Assembly: GCF_000014265.1 (NCBI RefSeq)
Contig: NC_008312.1
Coordinates: 1,590,001-1,622,000, forward strand
DNA from: Trichodesmium erythraeum IMS101
Lineage (GTDB): Bacteria; Cyanobacteriota; Cyanobacteriia; Cyanobacteriales; Microcoleaceae
DNA length: 32,000 nt
Direction of reading: 5' to 3'
The position numbers were made by a program, and so were the translations under genes. Shown in pieces: positions 9,815 to 31,284 of the stretch. The notes under the pieces are model-generated. The model did not search any database. It saw nothing but the letters and a program-made list of their open reading frames with translations, and was not told the DNA's origin. Each line of letters opens with the position of its first letter. Position 1 is the stretch's first letter.

Positions 9815-9825
9815 GATTCTGTATC

Positions 9826-14272: not shown

Positions 14273-15049
14273 TCAGCGTGTAGCAGTAGAAATAGTTTTT
14301 CCTAGTGACATTAAAGTTCGTTTAAAATTTTCAGCACGACTGCAGAAATCATCACCTTTTCCTAAATCAAATGCCATTCCTTTGACTCCTGATAATAACT
14401 TTAAATAAACTTGACTTTCGGCATCTTGAGTGGCAATAACTAAATAAAATTGTTCTATTCCTGTAGTTTGAATAGCTGTTACCACTTCCTCAATATTTTT
14501 AGTTTTTTTATCTGGAATATGTGGAGGAGCATCTGTTACTAAAACAATAGCTTTATTACTTTCTAAATCAAAGGGTTGAGCCAATGCCAACATGACTGCA
14601 TCTAAACTACTTTCTGGCACATCTCCCCCTCCATAAGCTTTAATTTTAGCAACTTTTTGGCGGAAAAGAATGGGATTATTTGTAAAGACTTTTCTGTCAA
14701 ATTTTAAGAGTTGATGTTCTTCATTAATGAGGCGATCGCGAAATTCTATTAAACCCACTCTAACTCAGACCCCATCTTTTTCGATAGTATCAGCAAATTC
14801 CATGATTGTTTCTTTTATCCCATAAATTTCACCTTGCATACTGCCAGTACAATCTAACACAAACATGATATCTGCTTTGCGTTTTATGTCTAAAGTTTCT
14901 GCTCTTTGCCTCAGAGTTTCAATAAATTTTTCTCGGGAATAACTTTTAACAGTTTTTGCTGCTAGTTTTGTCTCCAATTTTAGACCACACTCATTACAGA
15001 ATTTAGCAGTATCTAAATTTGAGGCTCCACATTTAGGGCAAGCTTTCAT
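14273..15049 (-). pseudogene. Zinc-ribbon + von Willebrand A (vWA) protein interrupted by one in-frame TGA
   Basis: ORFs 14765-15049 and 14273-14758 are in the same frame, separated only by TGA at 14765-14767 (...EKDGV*VRVGLIEFRDR...). The N-terminus has the CPKCG...CNECG zinc ribbon. The MIDAS motif is DCTGS in FVLDCTGSMQG, and a later VLVTDAPPH strand follows. Confidence 0.75.
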
Positions 15050-15056: not shown

Positions 15057-16238
15057 TTAACTCCTATCTAAAAACACAAACCTTAAAAATACATCTCCCA
15101 CTTTAATCATATTCCCATGTTTAATTTCCACAGGATAATTATCAATCATTTTACCTTTCAACATAGTACCATTTTTACTACCTAAATCTCGGACAAAATA
15201 ATTATTTTCCTTTCTCATAAACTCCAAATGTTGTCTACTAATAGTTGTATCAGCTCCGGCAATATCTACACGACCTAAAATCAGACTACCACTATCATTA
15301 ATATTTACAAAAGTACGAGCTCCTTTGTTATTTCCAGATTCTACTATTAATAAGGGGTATTCAAAATTTAAAGCTATGGGTAACTTGGGATATTCAAGAG
15401 GAATTTCTAAATCACAAATCACGTCTTCTACTGACTGATAACGTTCTTCTGGATTAATCTTCATCATCTGGGATAATACCTGCTCTACTTCTGGGAAAAA
15501 ATCACAGTAAAAATCATTCAAATCTATCCCTATTTTTGGTGTTGGGGTTTGAGTTAAATACTTGATAAAATCTTCTAGTTTATACCAACCGGAATGACGC
15601 CAAAAATTTTCTCCCATGGCTAACTCATAAAGAATATGACCGAGAGAATAAATATCACTTTTAGCATCGGCAACTTTGGCTCCTTCTATCAAAAATTCTG
15701 GAGCCATATAGGGAGGTGTATCTATTATTTCTTTGCTCATGGTAATATTTTGATCTTTAAATTTGGCAACTCCAAAGTCGATAATTTTTGTTTGCATATC
15801 ATTGCTAATAATAATATTTGCTGGTTTTAAGTCTCTGTGAATAATGTTGCATTGATGAGCTGCAGATATACCTAATAATATTTGTTTAAATATTTGTTTT
15901 TTTTGTCGGTTATTGAGGGATTTTTTTTCTAAGAGTTTGTCTAGGCGTTTGCCGGGAAAGTATTCAAATAATATTAGATAGGTATTAGCATCCCATTCTT
16001 TTAGACCTAATAAGGGGATGATGTTTTCTGAGGGGATGTTAACTGCTGCTTCTAAACGAATTCTTTCTACTAAGGTTTCTTCTGGTTTAATTCCTTGAAT
16101 TACTTTTAAAATATAGTTTTTTTTGTGGCTATGGTCTATTGCTTTCCAAGCGGAACCAAAAGTACCTGTTCCTAGAAGTTCTAATAATTCAATTTCGCCT
16201 ATTTTATTAATATTGATAGGAATTTTTCCACCTACCAT
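15057..16238 (-). CDS. Ser/Thr protein kinase with C-terminal FHA domain
   Basis: G-loop GTGTFGSAWKA, HRDLKPANI, IDFGVAK and PPYMAPE. The C-terminal FHA signature is LILGR...ISRQHLEF...FVRDLGSKNGT. The ORF is intact at 393 aa. Confidence 0.9.
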   Translation of the reverse strand: MVGGKIPININKIGEIELLELLGTGTFGSAWKAIDHSHKKNYILKVIQGIKPEETLVERIRLEAAVNIPSENIIPLLGLKEWDANTYLILFEYFPGKRLDKLLEKKSLNNRQKKQIFKQILLGISAAHQCNIIHRDLKPANIIISNDMQTKIIDFGVAKFKDQNITMSKEIIDTPPYMAPEFLIEGAKVADAKSDIYSLGHILYELAMGENFWRHSGWYKLEDFIKYLTQTPTPKIGIDLNDFYCDFFPEVEQVLSQMMKINPEERYQSVEDVICDLEIPLEYPKLPIALNFEYPLLIVESGNNKGARTFVNINDSGSLILGRVDIAGADTTISRQHLEFMRKENNYFVRDLGSKNGTMLKGKMIDNYPVEIKHGNMIKVGDVFLRFVFLDRS

Positions 16239-16242: not shown

Positions 16243-17400
16243 TCTAAAGTTTTTGAAATTTTAGGTTATCAGTTTTTCAGTTATCAGTTTTCCAATTATC
16301 AGTTTTTTGATTTATTAGTATTAGTACCTCCAGTTAAAACTTCAGTTCAGAGTTTTTTTCAGTTATAAGTTTTTTCAGTTATCAGCTTTTTTAGTTATTA
16401 GCTATTAGTATCTCAAATTCAAGCTTCAATTATCAGCTTTTTCATTTCTTAGCTTTTTCATTTCTTAGCTTTTTCAGTTATCAGCTTTTTCAGTTATCAG
16501 CTTTTTGATTTATTAGCTATTAGTACCTCCGATCCAAGCTTTAATTATCAGTTTTTTTCAGTTCTTAGTTTTTTCAGTTATCATTTATCAGTTATCAATT
16601 ATCAGTTTTTTCAGTTATCAGCTTTTTGATTTATTAGCTATTAGTACCTCCGATCCAAGCTTTAATTATCAGTTTTTTTCAGTTATTATTTATCAGTTAT
16701 CATTTATCAGTTATCATTTATCAGTTTTTTCAGTTATCAGCTTTTTGATTTATTAGCTATTAGTACCTCCAGTTCAAGCTTCAGTTATCAACTTTTTTAG
16801 TTGTGAGCTATTAGTACCTTCAGTTCAAGCTTTAATTATCAGTTTTTTTTCAGTTATTAACTTTTTCAGTTATCAGCTTTTTCAGTTATCAGCTTTTTTA
16901 GTTGTTAGCTATTACTACCTCCATTTCAAGCTTTAATCATCAGTTTTTTTTCAGTTATCAGCTTTTTCAGTTATCAGCTTTTTGATTTATTAGTTATGAG
17001 TACCTTCAGTTAAAGCTTCAATTATCAGCTTTTTCAGTTCTTATATTTTTCAGTTCTTAGCCTTTTTAGTCATCAACTTTTTCAGTCATCAGCTTTTTTA
17101 GTTATTAGTTATTAGCACCTCCAGTTAAAGCTTCATTTATAACTCAGTTATTAACCTTTTTTTACTTATAATCTTTTTTAGTTATTAGCTATTAGTAACT
17201 TCAGTTTAAGCTTCAATCATCAGCTTTTTTTAGCTATTAAATTTTTCAATTATTGGCTTTTTTAGTTATCAGTTTTTCAAGGGTTAACTTTTTTAGTTAT
17301 TAGTGATTAGTCTTTCCACTTAAAACTTTAGTTATTAGTTACTAGGTAAGGATTCAGGTATACAAAATAGGTAAGTATTCAGTTATTAGCTTTTTTTAGT
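16243..17400. repeat. Nested tandem-repeat array B (STRR-like) between the PP2C and kinase genes
   Basis: About 10 units of roughly 90-125 bp share the core TTAGCTATTAGTACCTCC..CAAGCTT. They are padded by 16-mers (TTTTTCAGTTATCAGC) and heptamers (TTATCAG/TTATCAT). For example, 16492-16611 and 16612-16731 look nearly identical. Confidence 0.85.
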
Positions 17401-17554: not shown

Positions 17555-18409
17555 TTACCATTTTTTTATTGATTGAATTACTGTTTCATTATCTGCACTT
17601 TTTCCAAGATGACGCCATACAATTAAAGTCTGATTATCCGTTTCCCCCCCCTTGCTGAGATTGACTAATTAATTTCTTAGAGATTTTTTTTAAATCTCCT
17701 TCTGATAGGATATCTTTTAATTCTTTTTCCTGGAAATTACTACTCACTCCATCACTACATAATAATAGTAAATCTTCTGCATAAAGCGAAACATAATGTA
17801 TGGGTAAATCTGGTGGTAAATTATCACACCCTAAATAAAATTCTAACATATTCTTTCCCTCGTGGTGAGCTGCCATTTCTGAGATAATTATTCCTCCTCG
17901 TCTTATGGCACTTGCTAATGTGTGGTTGTCGGTAATTTGTCTGATTTTTTGACCATAATTTTGATGAGAATAATGATAGATTAGGCTGTCTCCTAAGTTG
18001 GAAATAATTGCTATTGCTTCGGAGATTAAGGCAACTGCTAATGTGGCTCCAGATTTATCCCAACTATTGTTTTTTATTATTCTTTTTATATGAGCGTTTG
18101 TTTCGGCGATCGCTTCTTTTATGGCTATAGTTAATGTTTCTATAGTTGGGAGTTTTTTGCTTTTTTCTTGGTTGTTAATACTGGGTTCAAATACTAAGGT
18201 TTCAAATAGGCTGAGGCTGATCTTTTTAGGACTTCTCTACTGATTTCTTCTCCATGTTCGTAACCTCCTATTCCATCTGATATTGCTAATAATGTTAATG
18301 GGCTTTGCTTTGGGTTTGGGGTGAGTTGGCAGATGATGAAGCTGTCTTCGTTTTTCGGTCGTTTGTTAGTTTCGCTACGACTTACATATTCAATGTTTGT
18401 TGTTTTCAT
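17555..18409 (-). pseudogene. PP2C-family Ser/Thr phosphatase with two frameshifts
   Basis: Three collinear frames. (1) MKTTN...NEDSFII...LLAISDGIGGYEHGEE (18409-18194). (2) ...GATLAVALI...NLGDSLIY...ITDNHT...LLLCSDGV... (to 17634). (3) DNQTLIVWRH...KKW* (to 17555). The shifts lie near 18195-18210 and at the C8/G8 run 17644-17651. Confidence 0.8.
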
Positions 18410-19153
18410 TTTTGGCTCTTGGGATTAAAATTAGATAATTTTATAGTTTTTGCTTTTTGGTTTTAATATTTTAAATTTTACGGTTTTTCTGCCGTTGTTA
18501 AATTGGCAAATTTTTCTGAGTTGCTGAATGAGGTTTCAATGTTTTTGGCGCTTTTTTGAGATTTTGTGATATCCTATACATAGGATATAATTTTCTACGC
18601 TTATACTTTAATTCATTTTTATGGCTTTTAATTCTTATTCTGCCGTTGTCTTGGTTTGTTTTTTTCTGATTCTTCTTTGCTCAAAATGACTAATTTTTCT
18701 CTGGTGGTTTTGGCGGTTTTGACAAATTATTTTTTGTGTGATAAGAAAACGGAATTTTTTTGATTTTTAGCAGTGGTTTTATGTTGAATAAAAAGTCTAG
18801 TGCGTAGGCGATATAACCTAAATAACATGATAATACCAAAATTTTCTTCGGGATGCAACCCTGATTTTTTGGTCGGCGCCAGTTTTTTGAGCTCCAGAAA
18901 ATGAGGATAAAAATATACCCTAGTTCAATTAGTGTTGATAAGAGCAAAAGCAACTACTGCTTTTATCATTCTTCCAGGAATTGAAAAGAATCAAACAACC
19001 TTTCGGCAAACCCACTCAGCTGTCTAACTCTGGTTGATTTTCGGAAGCTTGATTAAAAACTCAGGAACTGAGTGGATTCTTCCACACTCTTGATAAATTC
19101 CCATTTACCAGTCTATTATTCTGCCGGATTCTTTTTTTCTCTGATTCTTCTTT
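18263..19153. repeat. Left arm of a 0.89-kb inverted repeat (PP2C codons 1-49 + about 410-nt leader + promoter module)
   Basis: The reverse complement of 18263-19153 matches 27165-28054, with only scattered single-base differences in the stretches I compared by eye. Confidence 0.85.
18830..18858 (-). promoter_or_regulatory. Predicted promoter of the PP2C-kinase-vWA operon (module copy)
   Basis: On the minus strand: TTGCAT (18858-18853), a 17-nt spacer, then TGgTATTAT (-10 at 18835-18830). The box ACTAGACTTTTTATTCAAC is the reverse complement of 18783-18801. The leader to the PP2C ATG (18409) is about 410 nt. Confidence 0.55.
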
Positions 19154-19154
19154 A

Positions 19155-22100
19155 GAAAATTTGAGTAGAGTTATCCATATTTATGAAATTTTTAGCAGAA
19201 GACCAACACCATAATTTAAATTTGAAGACCTCAAAAGTTTCCCATTATAATCACCTACTTATTTCTTGAAATTTTTAATTCTAGACTTGGAATTTTGAAC
19301 TTTGAATTTTTGAATTTTTGAATTTTAAATTTTGAATGTAGGATTTTTTTCCTTTTCCCTTTTCCCTCTTTCCTTTTTTCCTTAAACTTCATAAAATTTG
19401 AGTAGAGTTATCCATATTTATCAAACTTTTAGCAGAAAACCAACACCATAATTTAAATTTGAAGACCTCAAAAGTTTCCCATTGTCATCACCTACTTATT
19501 TCTTGAAATTTTTAATTCTAGACTTGGAATTTTGAACTTTGAATTTTTGAATTTTTGAATTTTAAATTTTGAATGTAGGATTTTTTTTCCTTTTCCCTTT
19601 TCCCTCTTTCCTTTTTTCCTTAAACTTCAGAAAATTTGAGTAGAGTTATCCATATTTATCAAACTTTTAGCAGAAAACCAACACCATAATTTAAATTTGA
19701 AGACCTCAAAAGTTTCCCATTATCATCACCTACTTATTTCTTGAAATTTTTAATTCTAGACTTGGAATTTTGAACTTTGAATTTTTGAATTTTTGAATTT
19801 TAAATTTTGAATGTAGGATTTTTTTCCTTTTCCCTTTTCCCTCTTTCCTTTTTTCCTTAAACTTCAGAAAATTTGAGTAGAGTTATCCATATTTATGAAA
19901 TTTTTAGCAGAAGACCAACACCATAATTTAAATTTGAAGAGCTCAAAAGTTTCCCATTATAATCACCTACTTATTTCTTGAAATTTTTAATTCTAGACTT
20001 GGAATTTTGAACTTTGAATTTTTGAATTTTTGAATTTTAAATTTTGAATGTAGGATTTTTTTCCTTTTCCCTTTTCCCTCTTTCCTTTTTTCCTTAAACT
20101 TCAGAAAATTTGAGTAGAGTTATCGATATTTATCAAACTTTTAGCAGAAAACCAACACCATAATTTAAATTTGAAGACCTCAAAAGTTTCCCATTATCAT
20201 CACCTACTTATTTCTTGAAATTTTTAATTCTAGATTTGGAATTTTGAACTTTGAATTTGGAATTTTAAATTTTGAATGTAGGATTTTTTTCCTTTTCCCT
20301 TTTCCCTCTTTCCTTTTTTCCTTAAACTTCATAAAATTTGAGTATAGTTATCCATATTTATCACACTTTTAGCAGAAAACCGACACCATAATTTGAATTT
20401 TAAGAACTCAAAAGTTTCCCATTATCATCACCTACTTATTTCTTGAAATTTTTAATTCTAGACTTGGAATTTTGAACTTTGAATTTTTGAATTTTAAATT
20501 TTTGAATTTGGAATTTTAAATTTTGAATGTTGGATTTTTTTCCTTTTCCCTTTTCCCTCTTTCCTTTTTTCCTTAAACTTCAGAAAATTTGAGTATAGTT
20601 ATCCATATTTATCACACTTTTAGCAGAAAACCGACACCATAATTTGAATTTGAAGAACTCAAAAGTTTCCCATTATCATCACCTACTTATTTCTTGAAAT
20701 TTTTAATTCTAGACTTGGAATTTTGAACTTTGAATTTTTGAATTGTAAATTTTTGAATTTGGAATTTTAAATTTTGAATGTAGGATTTTTTTCCTTTTCC
20801 CTTTTCCCTCTTTCCTTTTTTCCTTAAACTTCAGAAAATTTGAGTAGAGTTATCCATATTTATGAAATTTTTAGCAGAAAACCGAAACCATAACTTAAAT
20901 TAGAAGACCTCAAAAGTTTCCCATTATCATCACCTACTTATTTCTTGAAATTTTTAATTCTAGATTTGGAATTTTGAACTTTGAATTTGGAATTTTAAAT
21001 TTTGAATGTAGGATTTTTTTCCTTTTCCCTTTTCCCTCTTTCCTTTTTTCCTTAAACTTCAGAAAATTTGAGTAGAGTTATCCATATTTATGAAATTTTT
21101 AGCAGAAGACCAACACCATAATTTAAATTTGAAGAGCTCAAAAGTTTCCCATTATCATCACCTACTTATTTCTTGAAATTTTTAATTCTAGATTTGGAAT
21201 TTTGAACTTTGAATTTGGAATTTTAAATTTTGAATGTAGGATTTTTTTCCTTTTCCCTTTTCCCTCTTTCCTTTTTTCCTTAAACTTCAGAAAATTTGAG
21301 TAGAGTTATCCATATTTATGAAATTTTTAGCAGAAAACCGAAACCATAACTTAAATTAGAAGACCTCAAAAGTTTCCCATTATCATCACCTACTTATTTC
21401 TTGAAATTTTTAATTCTAGACTTGGAATTTTGAACTTTGAATTTTTGAATTTTTGAATTTTAAATTTTGAATGTTGGATTTTTTTCCTTTTCCCTTTTCC
21501 CTCTTTCCTTTTTTCCTTAAACTTCAGAAAATTTGAGTATAGTTATCCATATTTATCACACTTTTAGCAGAAAACCGACACCATAATTTGAATTTGAAGA
21601 ACTCAAAAGTTTCCCATTATCATCACCTACTTATTTCTTGAAATTTTTAATTCTAGACTTGGAATTTTGAACTTTGAATTTTTGAATTGTAAATTTTTGA
21701 ATTTGGAATTTTAAATTTTGAATGTAGGATTTTTTTCCTTTTCCCTTTTCCCTCTTTCCTTTTTTCCTTAAACTTCAGAAAATTTGAGTAGAGTTATCCA
21801 TATTTATGAAATTTTTAGCAGAAAACCGAAACCATAACTTAAATTAGAAGACCTCAAAAGTTTCCCATTATCATCACCTACTTATTTCTTGAAATTTTTA
21901 ATTCTAGATTTGGAATTTTGAACTTTGAATTTGGAATTTTAAATTTTGAATGTAGGATTTTTTTCCTTTTCCCTTTTCCCTCTTTCCTTTTTTCCTTAAA
22001 CTTCAGAAAATTTGAGTAGAGTTATCCATATTTATGAAATTTTTAGCAGAAGACCAACACCATAATTTAAATTTGAAGAGCTCAAAAGTTTCCCATTATC

Positions 22101-22825
22101 ATCACCTACTTATTTCTTGAAATTTTTAATTCTAGATTTGGAATTTTGAACTTTGAATTTGGAATTTTAAATTTTGAATGTAGGATTTTTTTCCTTTTCC
22201 CTTTTCCCTCTTTCCTTTTTTCCTTAAACTTCAGAAAATTTGAGTAGAGTTATCCATATTTATGAAATTTTTAGCAGAAAACCGAAACCATAACTTAAAT
22301 TAGAAGACCTCAAAAGTTTCCCATTATCATCACCTACTTATTTCTTGAAATTTTTAATTCTAGACTTGGAATTTTGAACTTTGAATTTTTGAATTTTTGA
22401 ATTTTAAATTTTGAATGTTGGATTTTTTTCCTTTTCCCTTTTCCCTCTTTCCTTTTTTCCTTAAACTTCAGAAAATTTGAGTAGAGTTATCCATATTTAT
22501 CAAACTTTTAGCAGAAAACCGAAACCATAACTTAAATTAGAAGACCTCAAAAGTTTCCCATTATCATCACCTACTTATTTCTTGAAATTTTTAATTCTAG
22601 ACTTGGAATTTTGAACTTTGAATTTTTGAATTTTTGAATTTTAAATTTTGAATGTTGGATTTTTTTCCTTTTCCCTTTTCCCTCTTTCCTTTTTTCCTTA
22701 AACTTCAGAAAATTTGAGTAGAGTTATCCATATTTATCAAACTTTTAGCAGAAAACCGAAACCATAATTTAAATTTGAAGACCTCAAAAGTTTCCCATTA
22801 TAATCACCTAATCATCACCTACTTA
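19155..22825 (+). repeat. Tandem array A: 15 full + 1 partial units of 228/237/251 bp
   Basis: The unit marker GAAAATTTGAGTAGAG recurs at 19155, 19392, 19630, 19867, 20104, 20332, 20583, 20834, 21062, 21290, 21527, 21778, 22006, 22234, 22471 and 22708. Each unit has a (T)GAATTTT microsatellite and a 34-nt pyrimidine tract. The array ends 19 nt before the target-1 ATG. Confidence 0.95.
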
Positions 22826-22843
22826 TTTAACTGAAAAAATATC

Positions 22844-24713
22844 ATGCGTTGCCTAAACTGCTATACCGATGGTATCCCACTTGAGACAGAAATATGTTCC
22901 AACTGTGGCGCATACCTACCATCACTGACCCGAGACCTTCTCAAACCAGGAACTCAACTTCGAGCCCAGACCTATCGAATAGACTACCCCTTAGGTCGAG
23001 GAGGGTTCGGCGTTACCTATTGAGGACACCACACATTATTAGAACAAATAGTCGCCATCAAAGAATACTATCCCCAAAACTACCCCCTGCGACACCCCAC
23101 CACTGGCGGCTTCACCATTCCCACAAACCAACAGGAAATATTTCAACGGGGTTTACAAAGATTTCTCCGAGAAGGGAAAATATTAGCCCAACTAAATCAT
23201 CTTCACGTGGTGGGGGTAACTGACTTATTTAAGGAAAATGAAACAGCTTACATGGTGATGGAGCTAGTTACAGGAAAAAGTCTCAGAAAAGAATTAGACT
23301 CTCAACCCCAGAAAAAATTTCCTCCTCAAAAAGTCAAAAAAATAATTACTGACCTCGTATCAGCATTATCCGCAGTACATAAAAAAGGAATATTTCACCT
23401 GGATATAAAACCCGATAATATTTTGCTAACTCCAGAAGGGCGGTTAGTATTAATTGACTTTGGCTCAGCACAACAAACCTTTGGTACTTCCATGGCTACT
23501 TCCAGCACTCGGACTTTTACTGAAGGTTATGTAGCTCCGGAAGTTCTCGCCGGGGGAGAAGTAGGAGTAGAAAGCGATATTTTTGAAGTCGGAATGATGG
23601 TTTATGAAATGTTGAGTGGGCAGTTACCTCCTAATGCTTTGGAACGTTTATTATTAAAAGCAAAAGGAAAAAGTTGGGAACCAGAAGGTTTAGAGTCATC
23701 TTGGCAAAAGCTGATAATGTCGGCTTTGGTTTTGGAAAAGGAAGGTCGCCCTGGAAATGTTGAAAAGTGGTGGGAGATAAATTTTCAGGAAAAATCAACT
23801 GACAGGACTCAGGAGTCAAAATTGAAAATATGGGAATTTATACAGAGAAAGAAAGATGTAAATTCTCCACCCCGACAAAAATTTAGTTTTGAGGTAATAA
23901 AGGTTAATTCCCGGGGTAAAGAAATTGACCGTCGTTCCTACGAAGCAGAATTTTTCGCAGAAAATTTAGGTAGGGGAGGGGGGTAGTCTTGGAAATGGTT
24001 TATATTCCTGGGGGAAGTTTTCTCATGGGGTCGCCGGAAAATGAGGCGGAAAGATACTCAATAAACTCTGATGAAGGTCCCCAACATCAAGTAAATCTCC
24101 AGCCTTTTTATATGAGCAAATATTCTATTACTCAAGACCAGTACCAAGCATGGGAAATAATCCTTCTTACTTTAAAGGAGGAAAACGCCCAGTAGAAAAA
24201 GTGAGCTGGCACGACGCTACAAAGTTTTGTCAGAAGCTATCATCAAAAACTGGGAAAATTTACACACTACCTAGTGAGAGTCAATGGAAATATGCTTGTC
24301 GCGCCGGGACTACTGCTCCTTTTTATTTTGGAGAAACTATAACGCCTGGGTTAGTTAACTACAGTGGTAACTATCCTTACGCCAATGCTCCTAAAGGAAA
24401 ATATCGAGGAGAAACAACAGATATAGGAAGTTTTCCTCCTAATGCTTTTGGTTTATATGATATGCACGGCAATGTTTGGGAATGGTGTCTAGATACTTGC
24501 CACGATAATTATAATGGAGCACCTACTGATGGAAGTTCTTGGGAAAGTGGGGGTGATAGTAATGACAGGTTGCTCCGTGGCGGTTGCTGGATCCACAATT
24601 CTAGATTTTGCCGGAGTGCCTGGCGCAACTATCTCTATGCCGACTACCTCTCCAACGATAGGGGTTTTCGAGTCATCTCCTCTTCCCCGGTGGTTTCTGG
24701 CTTTCATTCCTAG
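22844..24713 (+). pseudogene. DGR target 1: zinc-ribbon / Ser/Thr kinase / FGE-sulfatase (C-type lectin fold) protein, disrupted
   Basis: Collinear along its full length with the intact paralog at 29340-31193. It carries an in-frame TGA at 23021-23023 (the paralog has CGA Arg in GVTYRGHH). A frameshift sits near 23965-23990 (an extra 5 nt relative to the paralog). A second frameshift sits near 24145-24152 (4 nt missing). ORF pieces 23207-23986, 23989-24195 and 24150-24713 belong to it. Confidence 0.85.
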
Positions 24714-24721
24714 TATTCTTC
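24572..24721 (+). other. DGR variable repeat VR1 (3' end of target 1, runs 8 nt past the stop)
   Basis: Gap-free alignment to TR at offset 2031. There are 15 mismatches, 12 of them at TR adenines. The 3' IMH-like part is identical to TR except at 24680 (C in VR1, G in TR). Confidence 0.85.
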
Positions 24722-24730
24722 CACTTTTTA

Positions 24731-24775
24731 CTTTTCCCCTTTCCCCCTTTTTCCTTCTTTCCTTTTTCCTCTTTT
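24731..24775 (+). repeat. 45-nt uninterrupted polypyrimidine tract just downstream of VR1
   Basis: CTTTTCCCCTTTCCCCCTTTTTCCTTCTTTCCTTTTTCCTCTTTT. Related tracts occur in every array A/A' unit and about 50 nt downstream of the target-2 stop (purine strand at 29251-29289). No such tract follows TR. Confidence 0.8.
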
Positions 24776-25166
24776 GAGTCCCGCTTTAGCCGGCCGAAAT
24801 TTTTTTTCAAATTTAGGGTTGTTATGGCTTAGGCCATAGATAAGAAAGCCAAGGTCCCAAAATTTGAAGTAGGTTGGGCCTCAGAACGAAACCCAACATT
24901 CTCCCAATGGCAATAACGGCCTTATACCAAGGACTTATCTTGATACTGAAATATGAAATACTGAAATTATTAGGGGGTAAAAGTTTTAAAAGTTGAAAGT
25001 TTTAATCCATGACTTTTGATTTTGGTAAGGGGGGGTTGACTTCTAAAAACCGTGAAAAAAAAAGATTAATTTCATGGGAAAGAAACTGAAAAACAGTTAG
25101 CTTTAGGTTTTCTATTGACTCTTTTTGCACTTCCCCGAAATAGTATAAAAATTTAATCGCTATAGA

Positions 25167-25469
25167 ATGAACGAATTATCAATTATCCAAAAAACTTACG
25201 ACTTAATCATTTGGTATGTACCAATAATTAACAGACTACCTAAAACTCACAAATTTCAAATTGGCGATCGCTTAGTCAACAACTTATATAATTTTCTAGA
25301 ACTACTAATTATTGCCAAATATGCCTCAGAAAAACTCAACATACTAGAATCTCTAAACCCCAAACTAGACATAGTTCGTTATCAAAACAGAATTATTTTA
25401 GACTTCCAAATAATCAACAATAAACGCTACGAATATATCAGCCAAATAATCACAGAAATAGGCAAATAA
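25167..25469 (+). CDS. avd: Avd-like DGR accessory protein (four-helix-bundle, 23S-rRNA-IVS protein family), probably truncated at the C-terminus by a TAA
   Basis: 100 aa, helical. N-terminal YDLIIWYVPIINRLPKTHKFQIGDRL matches the Avd/IVS-protein pattern. Directly after the stop at 25467-25469 the same frame continues as LGIWIKQQKPKNP* (to 25511), resembling the usual Avd tail ..LGGW.K. Confidence 0.7.
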   Translation: MNELSIIQKTYDLIIWYVPIINRLPKTHKFQIGDRLVNNLYNFLELLIIAKYASEKLNILESLNPKLDIVRYQNRIILDFQIINNKRYEYISQIITEIGK

Positions 25470-25521
25470 TTAGGAATTTGGATTAAACAACAAAAACCGA
25501 AAAATCCTTAAACCATCAAAC

Positions 25522-26581
25522 ATGAAAAGACAGAAAAACTTATATCCCCAAATTACATGTTTTGACAACCTCCTCCTCGCAGCAAAAAAATCCCAGAAAG
25601 GAAAAAAATATAAACAGAATTTTCTGAAATTTAACTACAACTTAGAATTCATAATTACTACAACTAAAAACAGAATTATAAACTAAAACCTATCAACCAG
25701 GAAAATATAACACCTTGAAAATTATCGAAAGAAAACCCAGAATAATTTCCGCAGCTCCCTACCGAGACCGAATCATCCATCACGCCTTATGTAATATTAT
25801 TATTCCCATCTTTGAAAAAACATTTATCTACGATACTTATGCCAATAGAATCAATTTTGGTACTCATAAAGCCCTAAGTCGCTTCACCAAATTTTCCTGT
25901 TCCAGCTGTTACGTTTTACAATGCGACATAGTTAAATATTTTCCCAGCATCGACCATCAAATTCTCAAAGAAATTATTCGTCGCCAAATCAAATGTCAAG
26001 ATACTCTCTGGTTAATTGAAAAAATTATTGATGGAAGTAACCAACAAATTCCGGTATTAACTAAATTTCCCGGAGACGACTTACTCTCTTCAATAAATAG
26101 GAGAAAAGGTTTACCCCTAGGAAATTTAACTAGCCAATTTTTCGCCAACTTATACCTCAATAATTTCGATCATTTCATCAAAGAAGAACTGAAAGTCAAA
26201 AAATATCTACGTTATGTCGATGACTTTGCTTTATTCTCAGACGACAAAAAATTTCTAGTTATTGCCAGACAAAAAATTGAAACATATCTAGCCAACCTCT
26301 GCCTCAAGATTCATCCTATTAAAAGCCAATTATTTCAAACAAAAAAAGGAGCTAACTTTGTTGGTTTCCTAGTATTGCCAAACCGCATTAGAATACGTTC
26401 AGAAAATTTAAGAGCTGCCAGAAAAAAAATTCGACAATTACACGCACATTATCGACAAGGAAACATAGAATCTAGCCACATCCAAAAATCTCTACAAAGT
26501 TGGTTTGCTCATTTAGACCATGGCAATACCTGGCGCTTGAAACAAAAAATACTAACTTTTCTCAATACTATGGGAGAATAA
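25522..26581 (+). pseudogene. DGR-type reverse transcriptase, N-terminal region disrupted
   Basis: MKRQKNLYPQITCFDNLLLAAKKSQKGKKY..NYNLE reads in frame 1. After a 1-nt frameshift near 25648-25655 the sequence continues as [46 protein letters not shown]..., with an in-frame TAA at 25679-25681. It has the DGR-RT motif [17 protein letters not shown] and RYVDDF. It is collinear with Bordetella bRT as I recall it. The longest open piece is 25715-26581. Confidence 0.85.
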
Positions 26582-26599
26582 TTACGGGACTGACAAACC

Positions 26600-26752
26600 A
26601 AAGCTCCGTGGCGGTAGCTGGAACCACAATTCTAGACATTGCCGGAGTGCCAGGGGCAACTATAAAAATGCCGACAACCTCAACAACAATAGGGGTTTTC
26701 GAGTCATCTCGTCTTCCCCGGTGGTTTCTGGCTTTCATTCCTAGTATTCTTC
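26600..26752 (+). other. DGR template repeat (TR), 19 nt downstream of the RT stop
   Basis: Homologous to VR1 and VR2. Adenine-rich, and in the target frame it reads ..GGSWNHNSRHCRSARGNYKNADNLNNNRGFRVISSSPVV. The ORF-track entry 26500-26769 is an out-of-frame reading of it. Confidence 0.85.
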
Positions 26753-26763
26753 ATTGCCTGAGT

Positions 26764-27208
26764 TGGTAAATGGGAATTTATCAAGAGTGTGGAAGAGTCC
26801 AGTCAGTTCCTGAGTTTTTAATCAAGCTTCCGAAAATCAACCAGAGTTAGACAGCTGAGTGGGTTTGCCGAAAGGTTGTCTGATTCTTTTCAATTCCTGG
26901 AAGAATGATAAAAGCAGTAGTTGCTTTTGCTCCTATCAACACTCATTGAACTAGGGTATATTTTTATCCTTTATCCTCATTCTCGGGAGCTCCAAAAAAC
27001 TGTCGCCGACCCAAAAATCAGGGTTGCATGCTGAAGAAAATTTTGGTATTATCATGTTAGTAGGTGTAGCTCGCCCATACACTAGACTTTTTATTCAACA
27101 TAAAACCACTGCTAAAAATCAAAACCGCCAAAACCACCAGAGAAAAATTAGTCATTTTCAGCAAATAAGAATCAGAGAAAAAAAGAAACCGGCAGAATAA
27201 TAGACTGG
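26764..27208 (+). repeat. Extra tandem copy of the about 440-bp promoter module, beginning 11 nt after TR
   Basis: 26764-27208 and 27209-27650 are direct repeats (TGGTAAATGGGAATTTATCAAGAGTGTGGAAGA...). They differ by substitutions and small indels. Confidence 0.8.
27024..27052 (+). promoter_or_regulatory. Module promoter, copy in the extra tandem unit
   Basis: TTGCAT (27024-27029), a 17-nt spacer, then TGgTATTAT (-10 at 27047-27052). The box ACTAGACTTTTTATTCAAC is at 27081-27099. Confidence 0.5.
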
Positions 27209-27458
27209 TAAATGGGAATTTATCAAGAGTGTGGAAGAATCCACTCAGTTCCAGAGTTTTTAATCAAGCTTCCGAAAATCAACCAGAGTTAGACAGCTGA
27301 GTGGGTTTGCCGAAAGGTTGTCTGATTCTTTTCAATTCCTGGAAGAATGATAAAAGCAGTAGTTGCTTTTGCTCTTATCAAGACTAATTGAACTAGGGTA
27401 TATTTTTATCCTCATTTTCTGGGGCTCAAAAAACTGGCGCCGACCAAAAAAATCAGGG

Positions 27459-27487
27459 TTGCATCCCGAAGAAAATTTTGGTATTAT
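27459..27487 (+). promoter_or_regulatory. Module promoter, duplicate of the PP2C operon promoter
   Basis: TTGCAT (27459-27464), a 17-nt spacer, then TGgTATTAT (-10 at 27482-27487). The box is at 27516-27534. Confidence 0.5.
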
Positions 27488-27907
27488 CATGTTAGTTAGG
27501 TGATATCGCCTACGCACTAGACTTTTTATTCAACATAAGACCACTGCTAAAAATCAAAAAAATTCCGTTTTCTTATCACACAAAAAATAATTTGTCAAAA
27601 CCGCCAAAACCACCAGAGAAAAATTAGTCATTTTGAGCAAAGAAGAATCAGAAAAAAACAAACCAAGACAACGGCAGAATAAGAATTAAGAGCCATAAAA
27701 ATGAATTAAAGTATAAGCGTAGAAAATTATATCCTATGTATAGGATATCACAAAATCTCAAAAAAGCGCCAAAAACATTGAAACCTCATTCAGCAACTCA
27801 GAAAAATTTGCCAATTTAACAACGGCAGAAAAACCGTAAAATTTAAAATATTAAAACCAAAAAGCAAAAACTATAAAATTATCTAATTTTAATCCCAAGA
27901 GCCAAAA

Positions 27908-28054
27908 ATGAAAACAACAAACATTGAATATGTAAGTCGTAGCGAAACTAACAAACGACCGAAAAACGAAGACAGCTTCATCATCTGCCAACTCACCCCA
28001 AACCCAAAGCAAAGCCCATTAACATTATTAGCAATATCAGATGGAATAGGAGGT
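27908..28054 (+). pseudogene. Truncated duplicate of PP2C codons 1-49
   Basis: Reads MKTTNIEYVSRSETNKRPKNEDSFIICQLTPNPKQSPLTLLAISDGIGG, the same as 18409-18263. Homology stops at 28054, where array A' begins. Confidence 0.85.
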
Positions 28055-29339
28055 AAGGAAAAAAATTCAAGATTCAAAATTTAAAATTCCAAATTCAAAG
28101 TTCAAAATTCCAAATCTAGAATTAAAAATTTCAAGAAATAAGTAGGTGATGATAATGGGAAACCTTTGAGTTCTTCAAATTCAAATTATGGTGTTGGTTT
28201 TCTGCCAAAAGTTTGATAAGTATGGATAACTCCACTCAAATTTTCTGAAGTTTAAGGAAAAAAGGAAAGAGGAAAAAGGGAAAAGGGAAAAGGAAAAAAA
28301 ATCCAAATTCCAAATTCAAAAATTCCAAATTTAAAATTCCAAATTCAAAGTTCAAAATTCCAAATCTAGAATTAAAAATTTCAAGAAATAAGTAGGTGAT
28401 GATAATGGGAAACCTTTGAGGTCTTCAAATTCAAATTATTGCGCCGGTCTTCTGCTAAAAGTTTGATAAGTATGGATAACTCCACTTAAATTTTCTGAAG
28501 TTTAAGGAAAAAAGGAAAGAGGGAAAAGGGAAAAGGAAAAAAAATCCTAAGTTCAAAATTTAAAATTCCAAATTCAAAGTTCAAAATTCCAAATCTAGAA
28601 TTAAAAATTTCAAGAAATAAGTAGGTGATGATAATGGGAAACCTTTGATGTCTTCAAATTCAAATTATGGTGCCGGTCTTCTGCTAAAAATTTCATAAAA
28701 AATATGGATAACTCCACTCAAATTTTCTGAAGTTTAAGGAAAAAAGGAAAGAGGGAAAAGGGAAAAGGAAAAAGGGAAAAGGAAAAAAATTCCAAATTCC
28801 AAATTCAAAAATTCCAAATTTAAAATTCCAAATTCAAAGTTCAAAATTCTAAATCTAGAATTAAAAATTTCAATAAATAAGTAGGTGATGATAATGGGAA
28901 ACCTTTGAGGTCTTCAAATTCAAATTATTGCGCCGGTCTTCTGCTAAAAGTTTGATAAGTATGGATAACTCCACTTAAATTTTCTGAAGTTTAAGGAAAA
29001 AAGGAAAGAGGGAAAAGGGAAAAGGAAAAAGGGAAAAGGAAAAAAATTCCAAATTCCAAATTCAAAAATTCCAAATTTAAAATTCCAAATTCAAAGTTCA
29101 AAATTCCAAATCTAGAATTAAAAATTTCAATAAATAAGTAGGTGATGATAATGGGAAACCTTTGAGGTCTTCAAATTCAAATTATTGCGCCGGTCTTCTG
29201 CTAAAAGTTTGATAAGTATGGATAACTCCACTCAAATTTTCTGAAGTTTAAGGAAAAAAGGAAAGACAGAAAAGGGAAAAGGAAAAAAATCCTAAATTCA
29301 AAACCTAAAATTAAAAATTAAAAATCCAAAAGAAAAACA
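28055..29339 (-). repeat. Tandem array A' (inverted copy of the array A family), about 5 units of 232-257 bp
   Basis: The marker CTCAAATTTTC (reverse complement of GAAAATTTGAG; two copies read CTTAAATTTTC) ends at 28245, 28495, 28727, 28984 and 29241. These units have diverged somewhat from array A units. The array abuts the target-2 stop codon at 29340. Confidence 0.9.
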
Positions 29340-29481
29340 CTAAGAATTAAAAGCAGAAACCACCGGGGAAGATGAGACAACCCGAAAACCCCTATAGTAG
29401 TAAAGATCATCGGCATTGTAATAGAAGCGCCAGGCACTACGACAATTTGTAGAATAGCTGTCCCAGCAACCGCCACGGAGC
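29340..29481 (-). other. Variable repeat VR2 (TR-homologous 3' end of target 2)
   Basis: Gap-free alignment to TR 26603-26744 gives 30 mismatches, 15 at TR adenines and 15 elsewhere (mostly C->T). It is TR-related but not a clean product of this TR. Confidence 0.6.
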
Positions 29482-31193
29482 ACTCTTTTACGATTACTAC
29501 CTCCAGTTTTCCAAGCACTTCCGTTAGTAGGTGCTCCATAATAATTATGGTGCCAAGCATCTAAACACCATTCCGAAACATTGCCGTGCATATCATATAA
29601 ACCAAAGGCATTAGGAAGAAAACTTCCCACATCTGTTGTTTGTTCCCGATACTCTCCAAATGGAGCATTGCCGTAAGGATAGTTACCATCGTAGTTAACT
29701 AACTCAGACGTCATAGTTTCTCCAAAATAAAAAGGAGTACTTGTCCCGGCACGACAAGCATATTCCCATTGACTTTCGCTGGGCAACCTGTAAATTTTCC
29801 CAGTTTTCGACGATAGCTTCTCACAAAACTTTGTAGCGTCGTGCCAGCTCACTCTTTCTACTGGGCGTTTTCCTCCTTTAAAGTAAGAAGGATTATCTCC
29901 CATAATAGCTTGGTACTGATCTTGAGTAATAGGATATTTGCTCATCAAGAAAGGCTTAATATTAACTTGATGTTGTGGACTTTCACTATCGAATCTTTCG
30001 TCCTCATATTCCGGTGACCCCATGAGAAAACTTCCCCCAGGAATATAAACCATTTCCAAGACCAACCCACTATCTAAATTTTCTGCCAAAAATTCTGCTT
30101 CGTAGGAACGACGGTCAATTTCTTTACCCCGGGAATTAACCTTTATTACCTCAAAACCAAATTTTTGTCGGGGCGGAGAACTTATATCTTTCTTTCTGTT
30201 TTTAAATTCCTTTGTTTTCCATCCTGACTCCTGAGTCCTTTCAGTTGATTTTTTGTGAAAATTCATTTCCCACCACTCCTCAATATTTCCAGGGCGACCT
30301 TCCTTTGCCAAAACTAAAGCCGACATTAGCAACTTTTGCCAAGACGACTCTAAGCCTTCAGGTTCCCAACTTTTTTCTTTTGATAATGAACGTTCCAGAA
30401 CATTGGGAGGTAACTGCCCACTCAACATTTCATAAACCATCATTCCTACTTCAAAAATATCACTTTCTACCCCTACCTCCCCCCTGGCGAGAACCTCCGG
30501 AGCCGCATAACTCTCAGCAAAACTCTCAGTGCTGGAAGTACCCATCGAAGTACCAAAAGTTTGTTTTGCCGAGCCAAAGTCAGTCAATACTAACCGTCCT
30601 TCTGGAGTTAGTAAAATATTATCGGGTTTTATATCCAGGTGAAATATTCCTTGTTGATGTACTGCCGATAATGCTGATACAAGGTCAGTAATTATTTCTT
30701 TGACTTTTTGAGGGGGAAATTTTTTCTCAGGTTGAGAATCTAATTCTTTTCTGAGACTTTTTCCTCTAACTAGCTCCATCACCAGGTAAGCTGTTTCATT
30801 TTCCTCAAATAAATCAATTACCCGCACCACATGAGGATGATTTAGTTGGGCTAATATTTTCCCTTCCTGGAGAAACCTTCGCAAACCCTGTTGAAATATT
30901 TCCTGTTGGTTTCTGGGAATGGTGAAACCTCCAGTGGTGGGATGTCGCAGGGCGTAATTTTGGGGATAGTATTCTTTAATAGCGACTATTTGTTTTAATA
31001 ATGTATGGTGTCCTCGATAAGTAACACCAAACCCTCCTCGACCTAAGGGGTAGTCTATTTGATAGGGCTTGTCTCCTAGTTGAGTACCTGGTGTTAGGAG
31101 GCCTCGGATTAGTGATGGTAGGTATGCGCCACAGTTATAACATATTTTTGTCTCAAGTGGAATACCGTCGGTATGGCAGTTTAAGCAACGCAT
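29340..31193 (-). CDS. DGR-type target 2: zinc-ribbon / Ser/Thr kinase / FGE-sulfatase (CLec-fold) protein, intact
   Basis: 617 aa. Zinc ribbon CLNCH...CYNCG. Kinase motifs GRGGFGVTY, HLDIKPDNILL, DFGSA and AAPE. FGE-sulfatase motifs RVSWHDATKFC, RLPSESQWEYACRAGT, GLYDMHGNVSEWC and LRGGCW. VR2 lies at the extreme C-terminus. Confidence 0.9.
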   Translation of the reverse strand: MRCLNCHTDGIPLETKICYNCGAYLPSLIRGLLTPGTQLGDKPYQIDYPLGRGGFGVTYRGHHTLLKQIVAIKEYYPQNYALRHPTTGGFTIPRNQQEIFQQGLRRFLQEGKILAQLNHPHVVRVIDLFEENETAYLVMELVRGKSLRKELDSQPEKKFPPQKVKEIITDLVSALSAVHQQGIFHLDIKPDNILLTPEGRLVLTDFGSAKQTFGTSMGTSSTESFAESYAAPEVLARGEVGVESDIFEVGMMVYEMLSGQLPPNVLERSLSKEKSWEPEGLESSWQKLLMSALVLAKEGRPGNIEEWWEMNFHKKSTERTQESGWKTKEFKNRKKDISSPPRQKFGFEVIKVNSRGKEIDRRSYEAEFLAENLDSGLVLEMVYIPGGSFLMGSPEYEDERFDSESPQHQVNIKPFLMSKYPITQDQYQAIMGDNPSYFKGGKRPVERVSWHDATKFCEKLSSKTGKIYRLPSESQWEYACRAGTSTPFYFGETMTSELVNYDGNYPYGNAPFGEYREQTTDVGSFLPNAFGLYDMHGNVSEWCLDAWHHNYYGAPTNGSAWKTGGSNRKRVLRGGCWDSYSTNCRSAWRFYYNADDLYYYRGFRVVSSSPVVSAFNS

Positions 31194-31284
31194 GATTTTA
31201 AGAGGTCAAAAATTAGATAAGAGTTTCAAAGCTTTCCGTAATTATAGTGTGGAGAATTTCCTGAAAAAGAAGGAAAAATGAGCA

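What the first reader, a model, noticed from the sequence alone, without database searches (positions are those of the whole stretch)
18263..28054. About 0.89-kb near-identical inverted repeats bracket the whole DGR cassette: a potential invertible 8-kb segment
18263-19153 and 27165-28054 are reverse complements of each other, with only scattered single-base differences where I compared them. Each arm contains the module promoter, the about 410-nt leader and exactly the first 147 nt of the PP2C gene. The left arm is part of the real PP2C gene. The right arm is a truncated duplicate that ends abruptly in array A'. The arms enclose array A, target 1, avd, RT, TR and one extra promoter module. 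Homologous recombination between the arms would flip this segment. In the flipped state target 2, the arrays, target 1, avd, RT and TR would all be co-directional with, and immediately upstream of, the PP2C/kinase/vWA operon. The current state therefore looks like one isomer of a flip-flop that couples or uncouples the DGR from the signalling operon.
Basis: partly seen in the sequence, partly recalled or inferred. Interest (0 to 1): 0.75.

Follow-up and report, generated by a model that had tools for sequence, protein, structure and literature searches.

The report
Inverted repeats marking a DGR-cassette inversion
Two real, nearly identical 0.89-kb inverted repeats flank a mutagenic retroelement (DGR) cassette in a Trichodesmium erythraeum-type genome and mark an evolutionary inversion of that cassette, but nothing shows that it works as a regulatory flip-flop switch.

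Summary
Window 18263-19153 and 28054-27163 are reverse complements: 891 aligned nt, 10 mismatches and one 1-nt indel (98.8%). Each arm holds a ~490-nt "module", a ~250-nt upstream region and the first 147 nt of a PP2C gene.

The window matches the published T. erythraeum DGR locus. In every other Trichodesmium lineage where a contig spans the region (MAG_R01, MAG_R02, MAG_R03, two JGI contigs and others), target, avd, RT, TR, module and the PP2C, kinase-FHA and vWA genes all run in one direction. The arm sequence there is single-copy or a direct tandem duplicate, with no inverted repeat.

So this window carries a derived inversion of 19154-27162. The arms are an inverted duplication of the sequence at one breakpoint. 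Both new junctions recur in independent wild assemblies, so this is not an assembly artefact.

Ongoing switching is unproven. Short-read contigs show both linkages across the arms, but the identical stretches exceed the assembly k-mers, so those linkages are arbitrary. The window has no invertase gene. PP2C, vWA, target 1 and RT are pseudogenes here.

Best reading: a recombination-prone scar of an inversion, not a dedicated switch. Interest is moderate.

The parts
18263..19153 (-). Left arm of the inverted repeat. In PP2C sense it reads: module (19153-18661), upstream region (18660-18410), first 147 nt of PP2C (18409-18263).
   Evidence: 98.8% reverse-complement match to 27163-28054.
27163..28054 (+). 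Right arm: module, upstream region and a truncated PP2C' (27908-28054). It ends abruptly in array A'.
   Evidence: Junction J2 (28054|28055) is found in 8 independent contigs.
19154..27162 (.). The 8,009-bp enclosed segment, inverted relative to the arrangement in other Trichodesmium lineages.
   Evidence: L102, L103, L100, L128 and L011 have this segment in the opposite orientation relative to PP2C/kinase/vWA.
17634..18409 (-). PP2C phosphatase gene, frameshifted near 18194-18200 (pseudogene in this genome).
   Evidence: three-frame translation. Intact orthologues of 258-284 aa hit Pfam PP2C and PP2C_2 above cut-off.
16258..17335 (.). Array C: tandem repeats of about 115-120 nt between PP2C and the kinase gene.
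   Evidence: D5-D7, D9. Absent from L101 and L103, where PP2C abuts the kinase gene.
15057..16238 (-). Ser/Thr kinase with an FHA domain, intact (393 aa).
   Evidence: Pkinase 1.2e-46, FHA 1.9e-14.
14273..15049 (-). Zinc-ribbon/vWA gene interrupted by an in-frame stop (94 aa + 161 aa).
   Evidence: The intact 258-aa orthologue is in L103.
19154..22836 (.). Array A: about 16 tandem units of 228-251 nt, abutting the distal end of the left arm (junction J1, 19153|19154).
   Evidence: D1/D2. J1 is found in L107, L115 and L132.
22844..24721 (+). Target 1 (kinase + FGE-sulfatase/CLec), a pseudogene with an in-frame stop and frameshifts. VR1 is 24572-24721.
   Evidence: VR1 vs TR: 15 mismatches, 12 at TR adenines.
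25167..25469 (+). avd accessory gene.
   Evidence: bAvd 2e-13.
25522..26581 (+). DGR reverse transcriptase, disrupted (stop in 'TEL*TK' and a frame change).
   Evidence: L103 reads 'TELETK' at this point. PMC4143802 reports the IMS101 RT as pseudogenised.
26603..26752 (+). Template repeat (TR).
   Evidence: (D13).
26764..27162 (+). Extra module (E), a direct tandem copy of the arm's module that starts just after TR. The full repeat unit, measured start-to-start, is 26764-27205, so its last ~43 nt overlap the start of the right arm.
   Evidence: 92% overall, 97% over the first 207 nt. The E + M tandem is also present in MAG_R01.
28055..29331 (.). Array A': 5 units, inverted relative to array A.
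   Evidence: (D3, I6-I25).
29332..31193 (-). Target 2 (617 aa, intact), outside the arms. VR2 is 29332-29481.
   Evidence: 32 mismatches to TR, only 16 at adenines.

Best explanation
The two arms are the scar of an evolutionary inversion in the T. erythraeum lineage.

The ancestral locus, still seen in other Trichodesmium, read in one direction: target 2, short array, target 1, avd, RT, TR, module E, module M, upstream region, PP2C, kinase-FHA, vWA.

In the lineage of this window the segment from inside the array to the E|M module boundary was inverted. The 891 bp lying between the two staggered breakpoints at the PP2C end (the E|M boundary and PP2C codon 49) ended up on both sides, in inverted orientation. 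This could have been one event, by staggered breaks or replicative template switching. It could also have been an inverted duplication followed by homologous recombination.

The inversion split one array into A and A'. It turned the tandem paralogues target 1 and target 2 into an inverted pair. It also uncoupled the DGR from the PP2C operon.

Shown here: the repeat, the derived junctions, and the opposite orientation in relatives.

Inferred: the mechanism of origin. The arms remain a substrate for RecA-type recombination, and the mismatch-free outer 364 nt suggest gene conversion, so rare re-inversion is plausible. It is not a dedicated or regulated switch.
For: - IR exact and non-random.
- The window matches the published T. 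erythraeum DGR locus: kinase-FGE targets, avd, broken RT, TR with adenine-specific mismatches.
- MAG_R01 contig L102 (68.6 kb, 95-97% identity) carries the same flanking genes (aminotransferase, HupE, CobW on one side; Crp and M61 peptidase on the other). It has T2, T1, avd, RT, TR, E, M, PP2C, kinase and vWA all co-directional, one copy of the arm, and no inverted repeat of 150 nt or more.
- The same collinear order occurs in L103/L104, L100, L101, L128 and L011, with a direct ~797-nt tandem duplicate at 96% identity.
- A truncated gene copy (PP2C') and the junctions J1 and J2 are derived by their nature.
- J1 and J2 recur in independent assemblies, including MAG St11_bin5 contig L132, which runs from J1 to J2.
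- Contigs 100% identical to the window stop 33-55 nt inside the left arm, as expected for a two-copy repeat.
- The two array breakpoints lie only about 35-44 nt apart in unit phase, and J1 sits in a short stretch similar in array unit and module boundary (ATTTTC...AAG). This fits one break in a single ancestral array.
- IMS101 locus tags put the RT (Tery_1728/1729) between the two VR genes (Tery_1727, Tery_1731), as in the window.
- No recombinase in the window.
Against: - MAG_R01 and the other relatives are short-read assemblies. The R01 array is probably collapsed, and I could not check whether R01 also holds a J2-type junction elsewhere.
- The array-phase argument is weak: roughly a 1-in-3 chance coincidence.
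- One-step and two-step origins cannot be told apart from sequence.
- A 0.89-kb repeat with a 364-bp perfect stretch in a recombination-proficient, reportedly polyploid cyanobacterium (my own knowledge) may flip more often than 'rarely'. I have no data that exclude a mixed population.
- The 9.9-kb Hawaiian scaffold that PMC4143802 calls 'perfectly co-linear' with IMS101 at 92-95% identity could mean the inverted form is older or more widespread than I infer. It was not retrievable.
Confidence: 0.62

Rival explanations
1. Active homologous-recombination flip-flop. Both orientation isomers coexist within strains or cells. Switching couples or uncouples TR/RT transcription and the PP2C-kinase-vWA operon.
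For: - Long near-identical arms with a 364-nt perfect stretch.
- Differences are clustered in a way that suggests gene conversion between the arms.
- The flipped order is viable, since it is the natural order in relatives.
- Contigs with both linkages exist in T. erythraeum-clade metagenomes. TR-arm-PP2C body: L129, L116. Array A-arm-A': L107. Against TR-arm-A': L105, L106, L110, L132. Array A-arm-PP2C: L115.
Against: - Those contigs come from de Bruijn assemblies with k of 141 or less, crossing identical stretches longer than k. The linkage is therefore arbitrary, and the assembly graph is the same for fixed and mixed populations.
- L129 and L106 are identical over the inner 2120 nt.
- L116's PP2C copy is truncated at about 17995 and followed by unrelated DNA.
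- L107's first module looks like a path switch inside the shared module 5' block.
- PP2C, vWA, target 1 and RT are pseudogenes here, so a regulatory benefit is hard to see.
- The DGR-PP2C linkage is not conserved outside Trichodesmium.
Confidence: 0.2
2. Site-specific invertible element (inverton or shufflon type) driven by a dedicated invertase that recognises the arms.
For: An inverted repeat brackets a promoter-containing segment. Programmed inversions are a known way to vary expression.
Against: - No serine or tyrosine recombinase in the 32 kb. The only recombination-type ORF is a DDE transposase fragment at 8452-9138, inside an IS insertion 9 kb away.
- The arms are 891 bp and include a gene fragment. 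Invertase sites are tens of bp (my own knowledge).
- Relatives lack the second arm.
Confidence: 0.03
3. The arms are two copies of a mobile or dispersed repeat family (MITE, IS or composite element) that happened to land on both sides of the cassette.
For: - T. erythraeum is rich in IS elements and repeats (PMC4143802, PMC7517822).
- The region is full of tandem arrays.
- A module-plus-PP2C' fragment is joined to a hemA (GlutR) gene in one metagenome contig, L120.
Against: - The arm carries the 5' end of a host gene plus its upstream region, in ancestral continuity with E on one side and with the PP2C body on the other.
- There is no transposase inside the arms.
- A 24-mer invariant among the three module copies occurs in only two contigs, both at this locus (MAG_R02, MAG_R03), in one genome for each of 185,579 bacterial and archaeal species. 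No T. erythraeum genome was returned.
Confidence: 0.05
4. Assembly artefact: a spurious inverted duplication in the source assembly.
For: Repeat-rich locus. Short-read assemblies break or collapse here.
Against: - J2 is present in 8 contigs and J1 in 3 contigs from independent samples and assemblers.
- L132 spans J1 to J2.
- The IMS101 gene order agrees with the window.
Confidence: 0.03

Closest known systems
Chromosomal inversions by homologous recombination between long inverted repeats (rrn- or IS-flanked inversions in bacteria, e.g. Salmonella genome-structure variants, abstract of PMC9783417 seen; flip-flop of the plastid inverted repeat, my own knowledge)
   Same: Arms of hundreds of bp to kb, near-identical and in inverted orientation, flank a segment whose orientation differs between related genomes. 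General recombination is sufficient and no dedicated enzyme is needed. Gene conversion keeps parts of the arms identical.
   Different: The arms are not rRNA operons or IS elements. They are a locus-specific duplicate containing a gene's 5' fragment. The second copy is absent from relatives with the ancestral order. Coexistence of both isomers is not shown.
Inversions flanked by inverted duplications of breakpoint sequence (staggered-break model described for Drosophila inversions, and replicative template-switch models; my own knowledge, not tested against a paper here)
   Same: Sequence that is single-copy at one breakpoint in the ancestral arrangement (module, upstream region, PP2C 1-147) is present at both ends of the inverted segment in inverted orientation. 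The other breakpoint, in the array, shows only a small loss of about 35-44 nt. The junctions show short similarity rather than long homology.
   Different: The model was described mainly in eukaryotes. The mechanism here is inferred from end-products only. A two-step route cannot be excluded.
Site-specific invertible promoters and shufflons (Hin, Fim and Bacteroides invertons; my own knowledge)
   Same: The idea of a DNA segment whose orientation decides which genes are co-transcribed.
   Different: Those use short IRs and an adjacent invertase. Neither is present here.
Trichodesmium erythraeum IMS101 DGR (Pfreundt et al. 2014, PMC4143802)
   Same: Same locus type: kinase-FGE/CLec targets on both sides of a pseudogenised RT, TR downstream of the RT, adenine-specific TR/VR differences.
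   Different: None of the four DGR papers I searched for these terms mentions the 0.89-kb inverted repeat, the truncated PP2C copy or the inversion relative to other Trichodesmium species.

Membership tests
Diversity-generating retroelement (context of the finding) | RT of the DGR type with an Avd accessory gene | tested here: met
   RVT_1 2e-21 and bAvd 2e-13. The closest homologues are cyanobacterial RNA-directed DNA polymerase / retron-type RT proteins. The RT is disrupted in this window.
Diversity-generating retroelement (context of the finding) | TR/VR pair differing mainly at TR adenines, with the VR at the 3' end of a target gene | tested here: met
   TR vs VR1: 15 mismatches, 12 at A, where A is 34 of 150 TR bases. 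VR2: 32 mismatches, 16 at A.
Homologous-recombination (IR-mediated) invertible segment | Long, near-identical inverted repeats flanking the segment | tested here: met
   891 nt at 98.8%, with a 364-nt perfect stretch.
Homologous-recombination (IR-mediated) invertible segment | Both orientations observed in one strain or population, with the repeats kept at both ends | tested here: inconclusive
   Both linkages appear in short-read contigs, but the repeats are longer than k, so the linkage is arbitrary. No long reads are available.
Homologous-recombination (IR-mediated) invertible segment | Signs of sequence exchange (gene conversion) between the arms | tested here: inconclusive
   No differences in the outer 364 nt against 10 plus 1 in the inner 527 nt. 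Haplotype blocks are mosaic among arm-containing contigs, but these are confounded by collapsed assemblies.
Inversion with breakpoint duplication (staggered-break or template-switch type) | Arm sequence is single-copy and contiguous at one breakpoint in the ancestral arrangement | tested here: met
   L102 (MAG_R01): TR, E, M, upstream region and PP2C are contiguous, with one copy and no inverted repeat of 150 nt or more.
Inversion with breakpoint duplication (staggered-break or template-switch type) | The enclosed segment is inverted relative to outgroups, and the flanks are conserved | tested here: met
   Same outer genes on both sides in L102, and the opposite orientation of T1-avd-RT-TR relative to PP2C in L102, L103, L100, L128 and L011.
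Inversion with breakpoint duplication (staggered-break or template-switch type) | The second breakpoint is a single site, so the two flanks rejoin into continuous sequence | tested here: inconclusive
   Arrays A (reverse complement) and A' rejoin in the same orientation with about 35-44 nt of one unit missing. The chance expectation is about 0.3.
Site-specific inverton or shufflon | Adjacent invertase (serine or tyrosine recombinase) | tested here: not met
   Pfam scans of the window ORFs found only a DDE transposase fragment at 8452-9138.
Site-specific inverton or shufflon | Short (tens of bp) inverted recombination sites | tested here: not met
   The arms are 891 bp and include 147 nt of coding sequence.

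The most novel reading that the evidence does not exclude
In polyploid Trichodesmium filaments the 0.89-kb arms mediate frequent reversible inversion, so that chromosome copies in both orientations coexist. One orientation restores the ancestral operon-like continuity from the highly transcribed TR, through the modules, into PP2C, kinase-FHA and vWA. The other directs arm-derived transcription antisense into the VR end of target 2. That would be a recombination-based toggle of a DGR and its partner signalling genes.
Probability: 0.1. Interest if true: 0.7.

Novelty: new member of a known kind. Interest (0 to 1): 0.4.

Why it matters
1. The reference T. erythraeum DGR locus, used for transcriptome and metagenome studies of DGR activity, is a rearranged derivative. 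In other Trichodesmium the DGR lies directly upstream of, and co-directional with, an intact PP2C, FHA-kinase and vWA gene set. This hints that the diversified receptor-kinase targets and that signalling set work together. The linkage was broken in T. erythraeum, where several parts have decayed.

2. The 0.89-kb repeat, the module copies and the arrays explain why short-read assemblies break or mis-join here. Contig-based statements about this locus need long reads.

3. It offers a defined, PCR-testable site for measuring recombination-driven structural heterogeneity in a polyploid marine diazotroph.

Tried and rejected
- The Rfam gathering scan and the tRNA scan of the window found nothing.
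- The metagenome scan with the RT did not return the Hawaiian 9.9-kb scaffold cited in PMC4143802. It gave only two short Trichodesmium-like contigs.
- The genome scan with a module 24-mer returned only MAG_R02 and MAG_R03, with no T. erythraeum genome. Exact-protein look-ups found no contig longer than 50 kb carrying the window's proteins. I therefore have no independent finished genome of the window's own type.
- The homologue search with the 58-aa PP2C'-array fusion ORF gave a single hit. I could not ask whether MAG_R01 also has a J2 junction.
- I first read L107, L116, L129 and L102 as direct evidence for the flipped isomer. I rejected that for the near-identical (98%) contigs L107, L116 and L129, because the repeat exceeds k and L129/L106 share an identical inner 2.1 kb.
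- Haplotyping the 10 arm differences across 25 contigs gave mosaics with no fixed left-versus-right alleles. This cannot be interpreted because arms collapse in short-read assemblies.
- Deriving the window from the tandem-duplicated state of MAG_R02/R03 by one inversion does not work. It predicts a PP2C' 148-411 remnant next to the left arm, and none is there.
- The promoter and terminator consensus scan of the right arm was not informative. The supplementary TSS tables of PMC4143802 are not held.
- I tested conserved DGR-PP2C synteny outside Trichodesmium and did not find it.

Full report
**Observation**

- A local alignment pairs 18263-18864 with 28054-27453 and 18865-19153 with 27451-27163. 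That is 891 aligned nt with 10 mismatches and one 1-nt indel, or 98.8%.
- The repeat finder and a BLAST of the window against itself give the same pair.
- All differences lie in 18627-19153. The outer 364 nt are identical. With uniformly spread differences this would have a probability of about 0.003-0.005.
- The arm boundary falls 147 nt into a PP2C reading frame (ATG at 18409). In the right arm that frame runs on into array A' as a 58-aa fusion ORF.

**What the locus is**

- The window is low-GC and carries a DGR. Its parts are avd (bAvd), an RT (RVT_1), a TR at 26603-26752, and two kinase + FGE-sulfatase targets.
- TR and VR1 differ at 15 positions, 12 of them TR adenines.
- The locus matches the T. 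erythraeum DGR described by Pfreundt et al. (PMC4143802), including a pseudogenised RT lying between two VR genes.
- Contigs 100% identical to the window come from Trichodesmium culture and environmental assemblies.
- Layout on the + strand:
  - vWA(-) with an in-frame stop, then kinase-FHA(-), array C, and PP2C(-) with a frameshift.
  - Left arm, array A (16 units), target 1(+) (a pseudogene), avd, RT (broken), TR, extra module E.
  - Right arm, array A' (5 units, inverted relative to A), target 2(-) (intact), array D.
- The "module" is a repeat unit of about 440-490 nt, present three times: in each arm, plus E in tandem with the right-arm copy (92% overall, 97% over its first 207 nt).

**Comparison with relatives: the key result**

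MAG_R01.
- A 68.6-kb contig of Trichodesmium MAG_R01 (L102) is 95-97% identical to the window. It has the same outer genes: aminotransferase, HupE and CobW on one side, Crp and M61 peptidase on the other.
- Its order is target 2, short array, target 1, avd, RT, TR, E, M, upstream region, PP2C, array C, kinase, vWA, all in one direction.
- It has one copy of the arm sequence and no inverted repeat of 150 nt or more anywhere in the 20.8 kb examined.

More distant lineages (85-93% identity).
- The same co-directional order, target 1, avd, RT, TR, module, PP2C, kinase, vWA, is seen in JGI contigs L103/L104, MAG_R02 (L100), MAG_R03 (L101), L128 and L011.
- These carry a direct tandem duplicate of about 797 nt (equivalent to window 17998-18759; 96% between the copies) instead of an inverted one.
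- In L103 every gene is intact: target 617 aa, RT 373 aa, PP2C 279 aa, kinase-FHA 400 aa, vWA 258 aa.

Conclusions from the comparison.
- The collinear order is ancestral.
- The window carries a derived inversion of 19154-27162 together with an inverted copy of the 891 nt that lay at the PP2C-side breakpoint.
- That single event also explains why arrays A and A', and targets 1 and 2, are inverted pairs in the window but direct repeats in MAG_R01.

**The junctions are real**

- The two novel junctions are J1 (left-arm distal end | array A, 19153|19154) and J2 (PP2C' codon 49 | array A', 28054|28055).
- J2 occurs in eight independent contigs and J1 in three.
- MAG St11_bin5 contig L132 runs from J1 to J2 at 99.1% identity.
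- Contigs identical to the window end 33-55 nt inside the left arm, as expected for a two-copy repeat.
- The repeat is therefore not an assembly artefact. It is shared by T. erythraeum-clade populations that differ from the window by 1-4%.

**How the arms arose (inferred)**

- On the left, PP2C, upstream region and M keep ancestral continuity up to the E|M boundary and then jump into the array.
- On the right, TR, E, M, upstream region and PP2C(1-147) keep ancestral continuity and then jump into the array.
- The two breaks at the PP2C end are thus staggered by 891 nt.
- The two breaks in the array are about 35-44 nt apart in unit phase. This is only weakly better than chance.
- J1 lies in a short stretch that is similar in the array unit and the module boundary.
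- This is the signature of an inversion with duplication of breakpoint sequence, through staggered breaks or template switching.
- An inverted duplication followed by homologous recombination would leave the same product.
- Deriving the window from the tandem-duplicated state of MAG_R02/R03 fails, because the predicted PP2C' remnant is absent. The direct and inverted duplications are therefore independent events in a duplication-prone spot.

**Is it a working flip-flop?**

- Contigs crossing an arm show all four linkages:
  - TR-arm-A': L105, L106, L110, L132.
  - TR-arm-PP2C body: L129, L116.
  - Array A-arm-PP2C: L115.
  - Array A-arm-A': L107.
- I do not count this as evidence. The assemblies use k of 141 or less, and the arms hold identical stretches longer than that. 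The graph is the same for a fixed and a mixed population, so the path taken is arbitrary.
- L129 and L106, from sister samples, are identical over the inner 2120 nt and differ at 6 of 343 outer positions. This is the pattern expected for one genome with two arms.
- L116's PP2C copy is truncated and followed by foreign DNA. L107's first module looks like a path switch inside the shared block.
- Arm haplotypes across contigs are mosaic, but collapsed assemblies confound them.
- Within the window, the mismatch-free outer 364 nt suggest gene conversion. The arms probably do recombine at some rate, and rare re-inversion is plausible.
- There is no invertase in the window.
- PP2C, vWA, target 1 and RT are all disrupted, and the same disruptions occur in wild contigs.
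- The DGR-PP2C linkage is not conserved outside Trichodesmium.
- A dedicated regulatory switch is therefore unlikely.

**Comparison with known systems and novelty**

- The locus behaves like the long-repeat, RecA-type inversions known from rrn- or IS-flanked segments and plastid inverted repeats.
- Its origin looks like the breakpoint-duplication inversions described mainly in eukaryotes.
- It fails the tests for a site-specific inverton, which needs a recombinase and short sites.
- None of the four DGR papers I searched for these terms (PMC4143802, PMC7517822, PMC8867640, PMC10907252) mentions the repeat or the inversion. As far as I can see the specific case is undescribed, but it is a new member of a known kind.

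**Verdict**

- Observation: confirmed.
- Interpretation: partly supported. The flipped state is real, as the ancestral arrangement, and an inversion did occur at these arms. A present-day coupling switch is not supported.
- Interest: 0.4.

Noticed in passing
L101:2995-4575, L103:4728-6308, L100:1-1245, L128:1-1254: Other Trichodesmium lineages carry a direct tandem duplicate of about 797 nt, made of the PP2C 5' 411 nt plus the upstream region (equivalent to window 17998-18759; 96% between copies). It gives a 142-aa truncated PP2C' ORF upstream of the real gene. The PP2C 5' region has thus been duplicated independently at least twice in the genus.
   Followed up: partly
window 19040-22959, 28004-29352, 31264-32000, 16258-17335: There are four AT-rich tandem arrays: A, A' and D with units of about 228-260 nt, and C with units of about 115-120 nt. 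Array C is absent from L101 and L103, where PP2C abuts the kinase gene. The array between target 2 and target 1 is only about 0.75 kb in the MAG_R01 contig, which may be collapsed. Function unknown, with no Rfam hit.
   Followed up: partly
window 26764-26970 (also 27206-27412 and 18947-19110): The first ~207 nt of each module is the best-conserved part (97% between E and the arm copy, against 88-92% for the rest). In E it starts 12 nt after TR. Given the 265-nt TR transcript reported for IMS101, it may be the 3' portion of the TR RNA. The arm modules would then be duplicated TR-RNA 3' regions rather than simple promoters.
   Followed up: no
window 29332-29481 (VR2): VR2 differs from TR at 32 positions, only 16 of them at TR adenines. 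The intact target 2 may therefore no longer be an efficient DGR target. The broken target 1 keeps a cleaner adenine-specific pattern (12 of 15).
   Followed up: partly
window ~7575-11037 (DDE transposase ORF 8452-9138): This is an insertion relative to MAG_R01 (L102 joins 7574 to 11038). It is partly present in L112, which joins 8434 to 9811. It looks like an IS element with a decayed DDE transposase, between the aminotransferase and HupE genes.
   Followed up: partly
window 14762-14764, ~18194-18200, ~23021, ~25670-25700: Gene decay runs across the locus: an in-frame stop in vWA, a frameshift in PP2C, a stop plus frameshifts in target 1, and a stop in the RT (TEL*TK against TELETK in L103). 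The same lesions occur in wild contigs (L092, L093, L112-L121, L116). MAG_R01 has different lesions: kinase, vWA and target 1 are split, while PP2C is intact.
   Followed up: partly
L120:985-2805, L116:4331-4422, L100:410-540: There are recurrent breaks inside PP2C. In L120 a PP2C' ending at window-equivalent 18087 is joined to a glutamyl-tRNA reductase gene. In L116 a copy ending at about 17995 is followed by 91 nt of unrelated sequence. MAG_R02 has a 130-nt AT-rich insertion at 18087-18090. These could be rearrangement hot spots or chimeric contigs.
   Followed up: no
window 13803-13845, 14159-14201, 18775-18817 and each module: The motif TGTTGAATAAAAAGTCTAGT recurs downstream of vWA (twice) and once in every module. 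It is invariant among the three module copies. It could be a regulatory or terminator-like site.
   Followed up: no
L013:1-2609: This metagenome contig has a TR/VR-like segment and a module start, followed after about 830 nt by avd and RT at 88% identity. That is a different order from all other loci and suggests further rearranged DGR copies in wild Trichodesmium.
   Followed up: no
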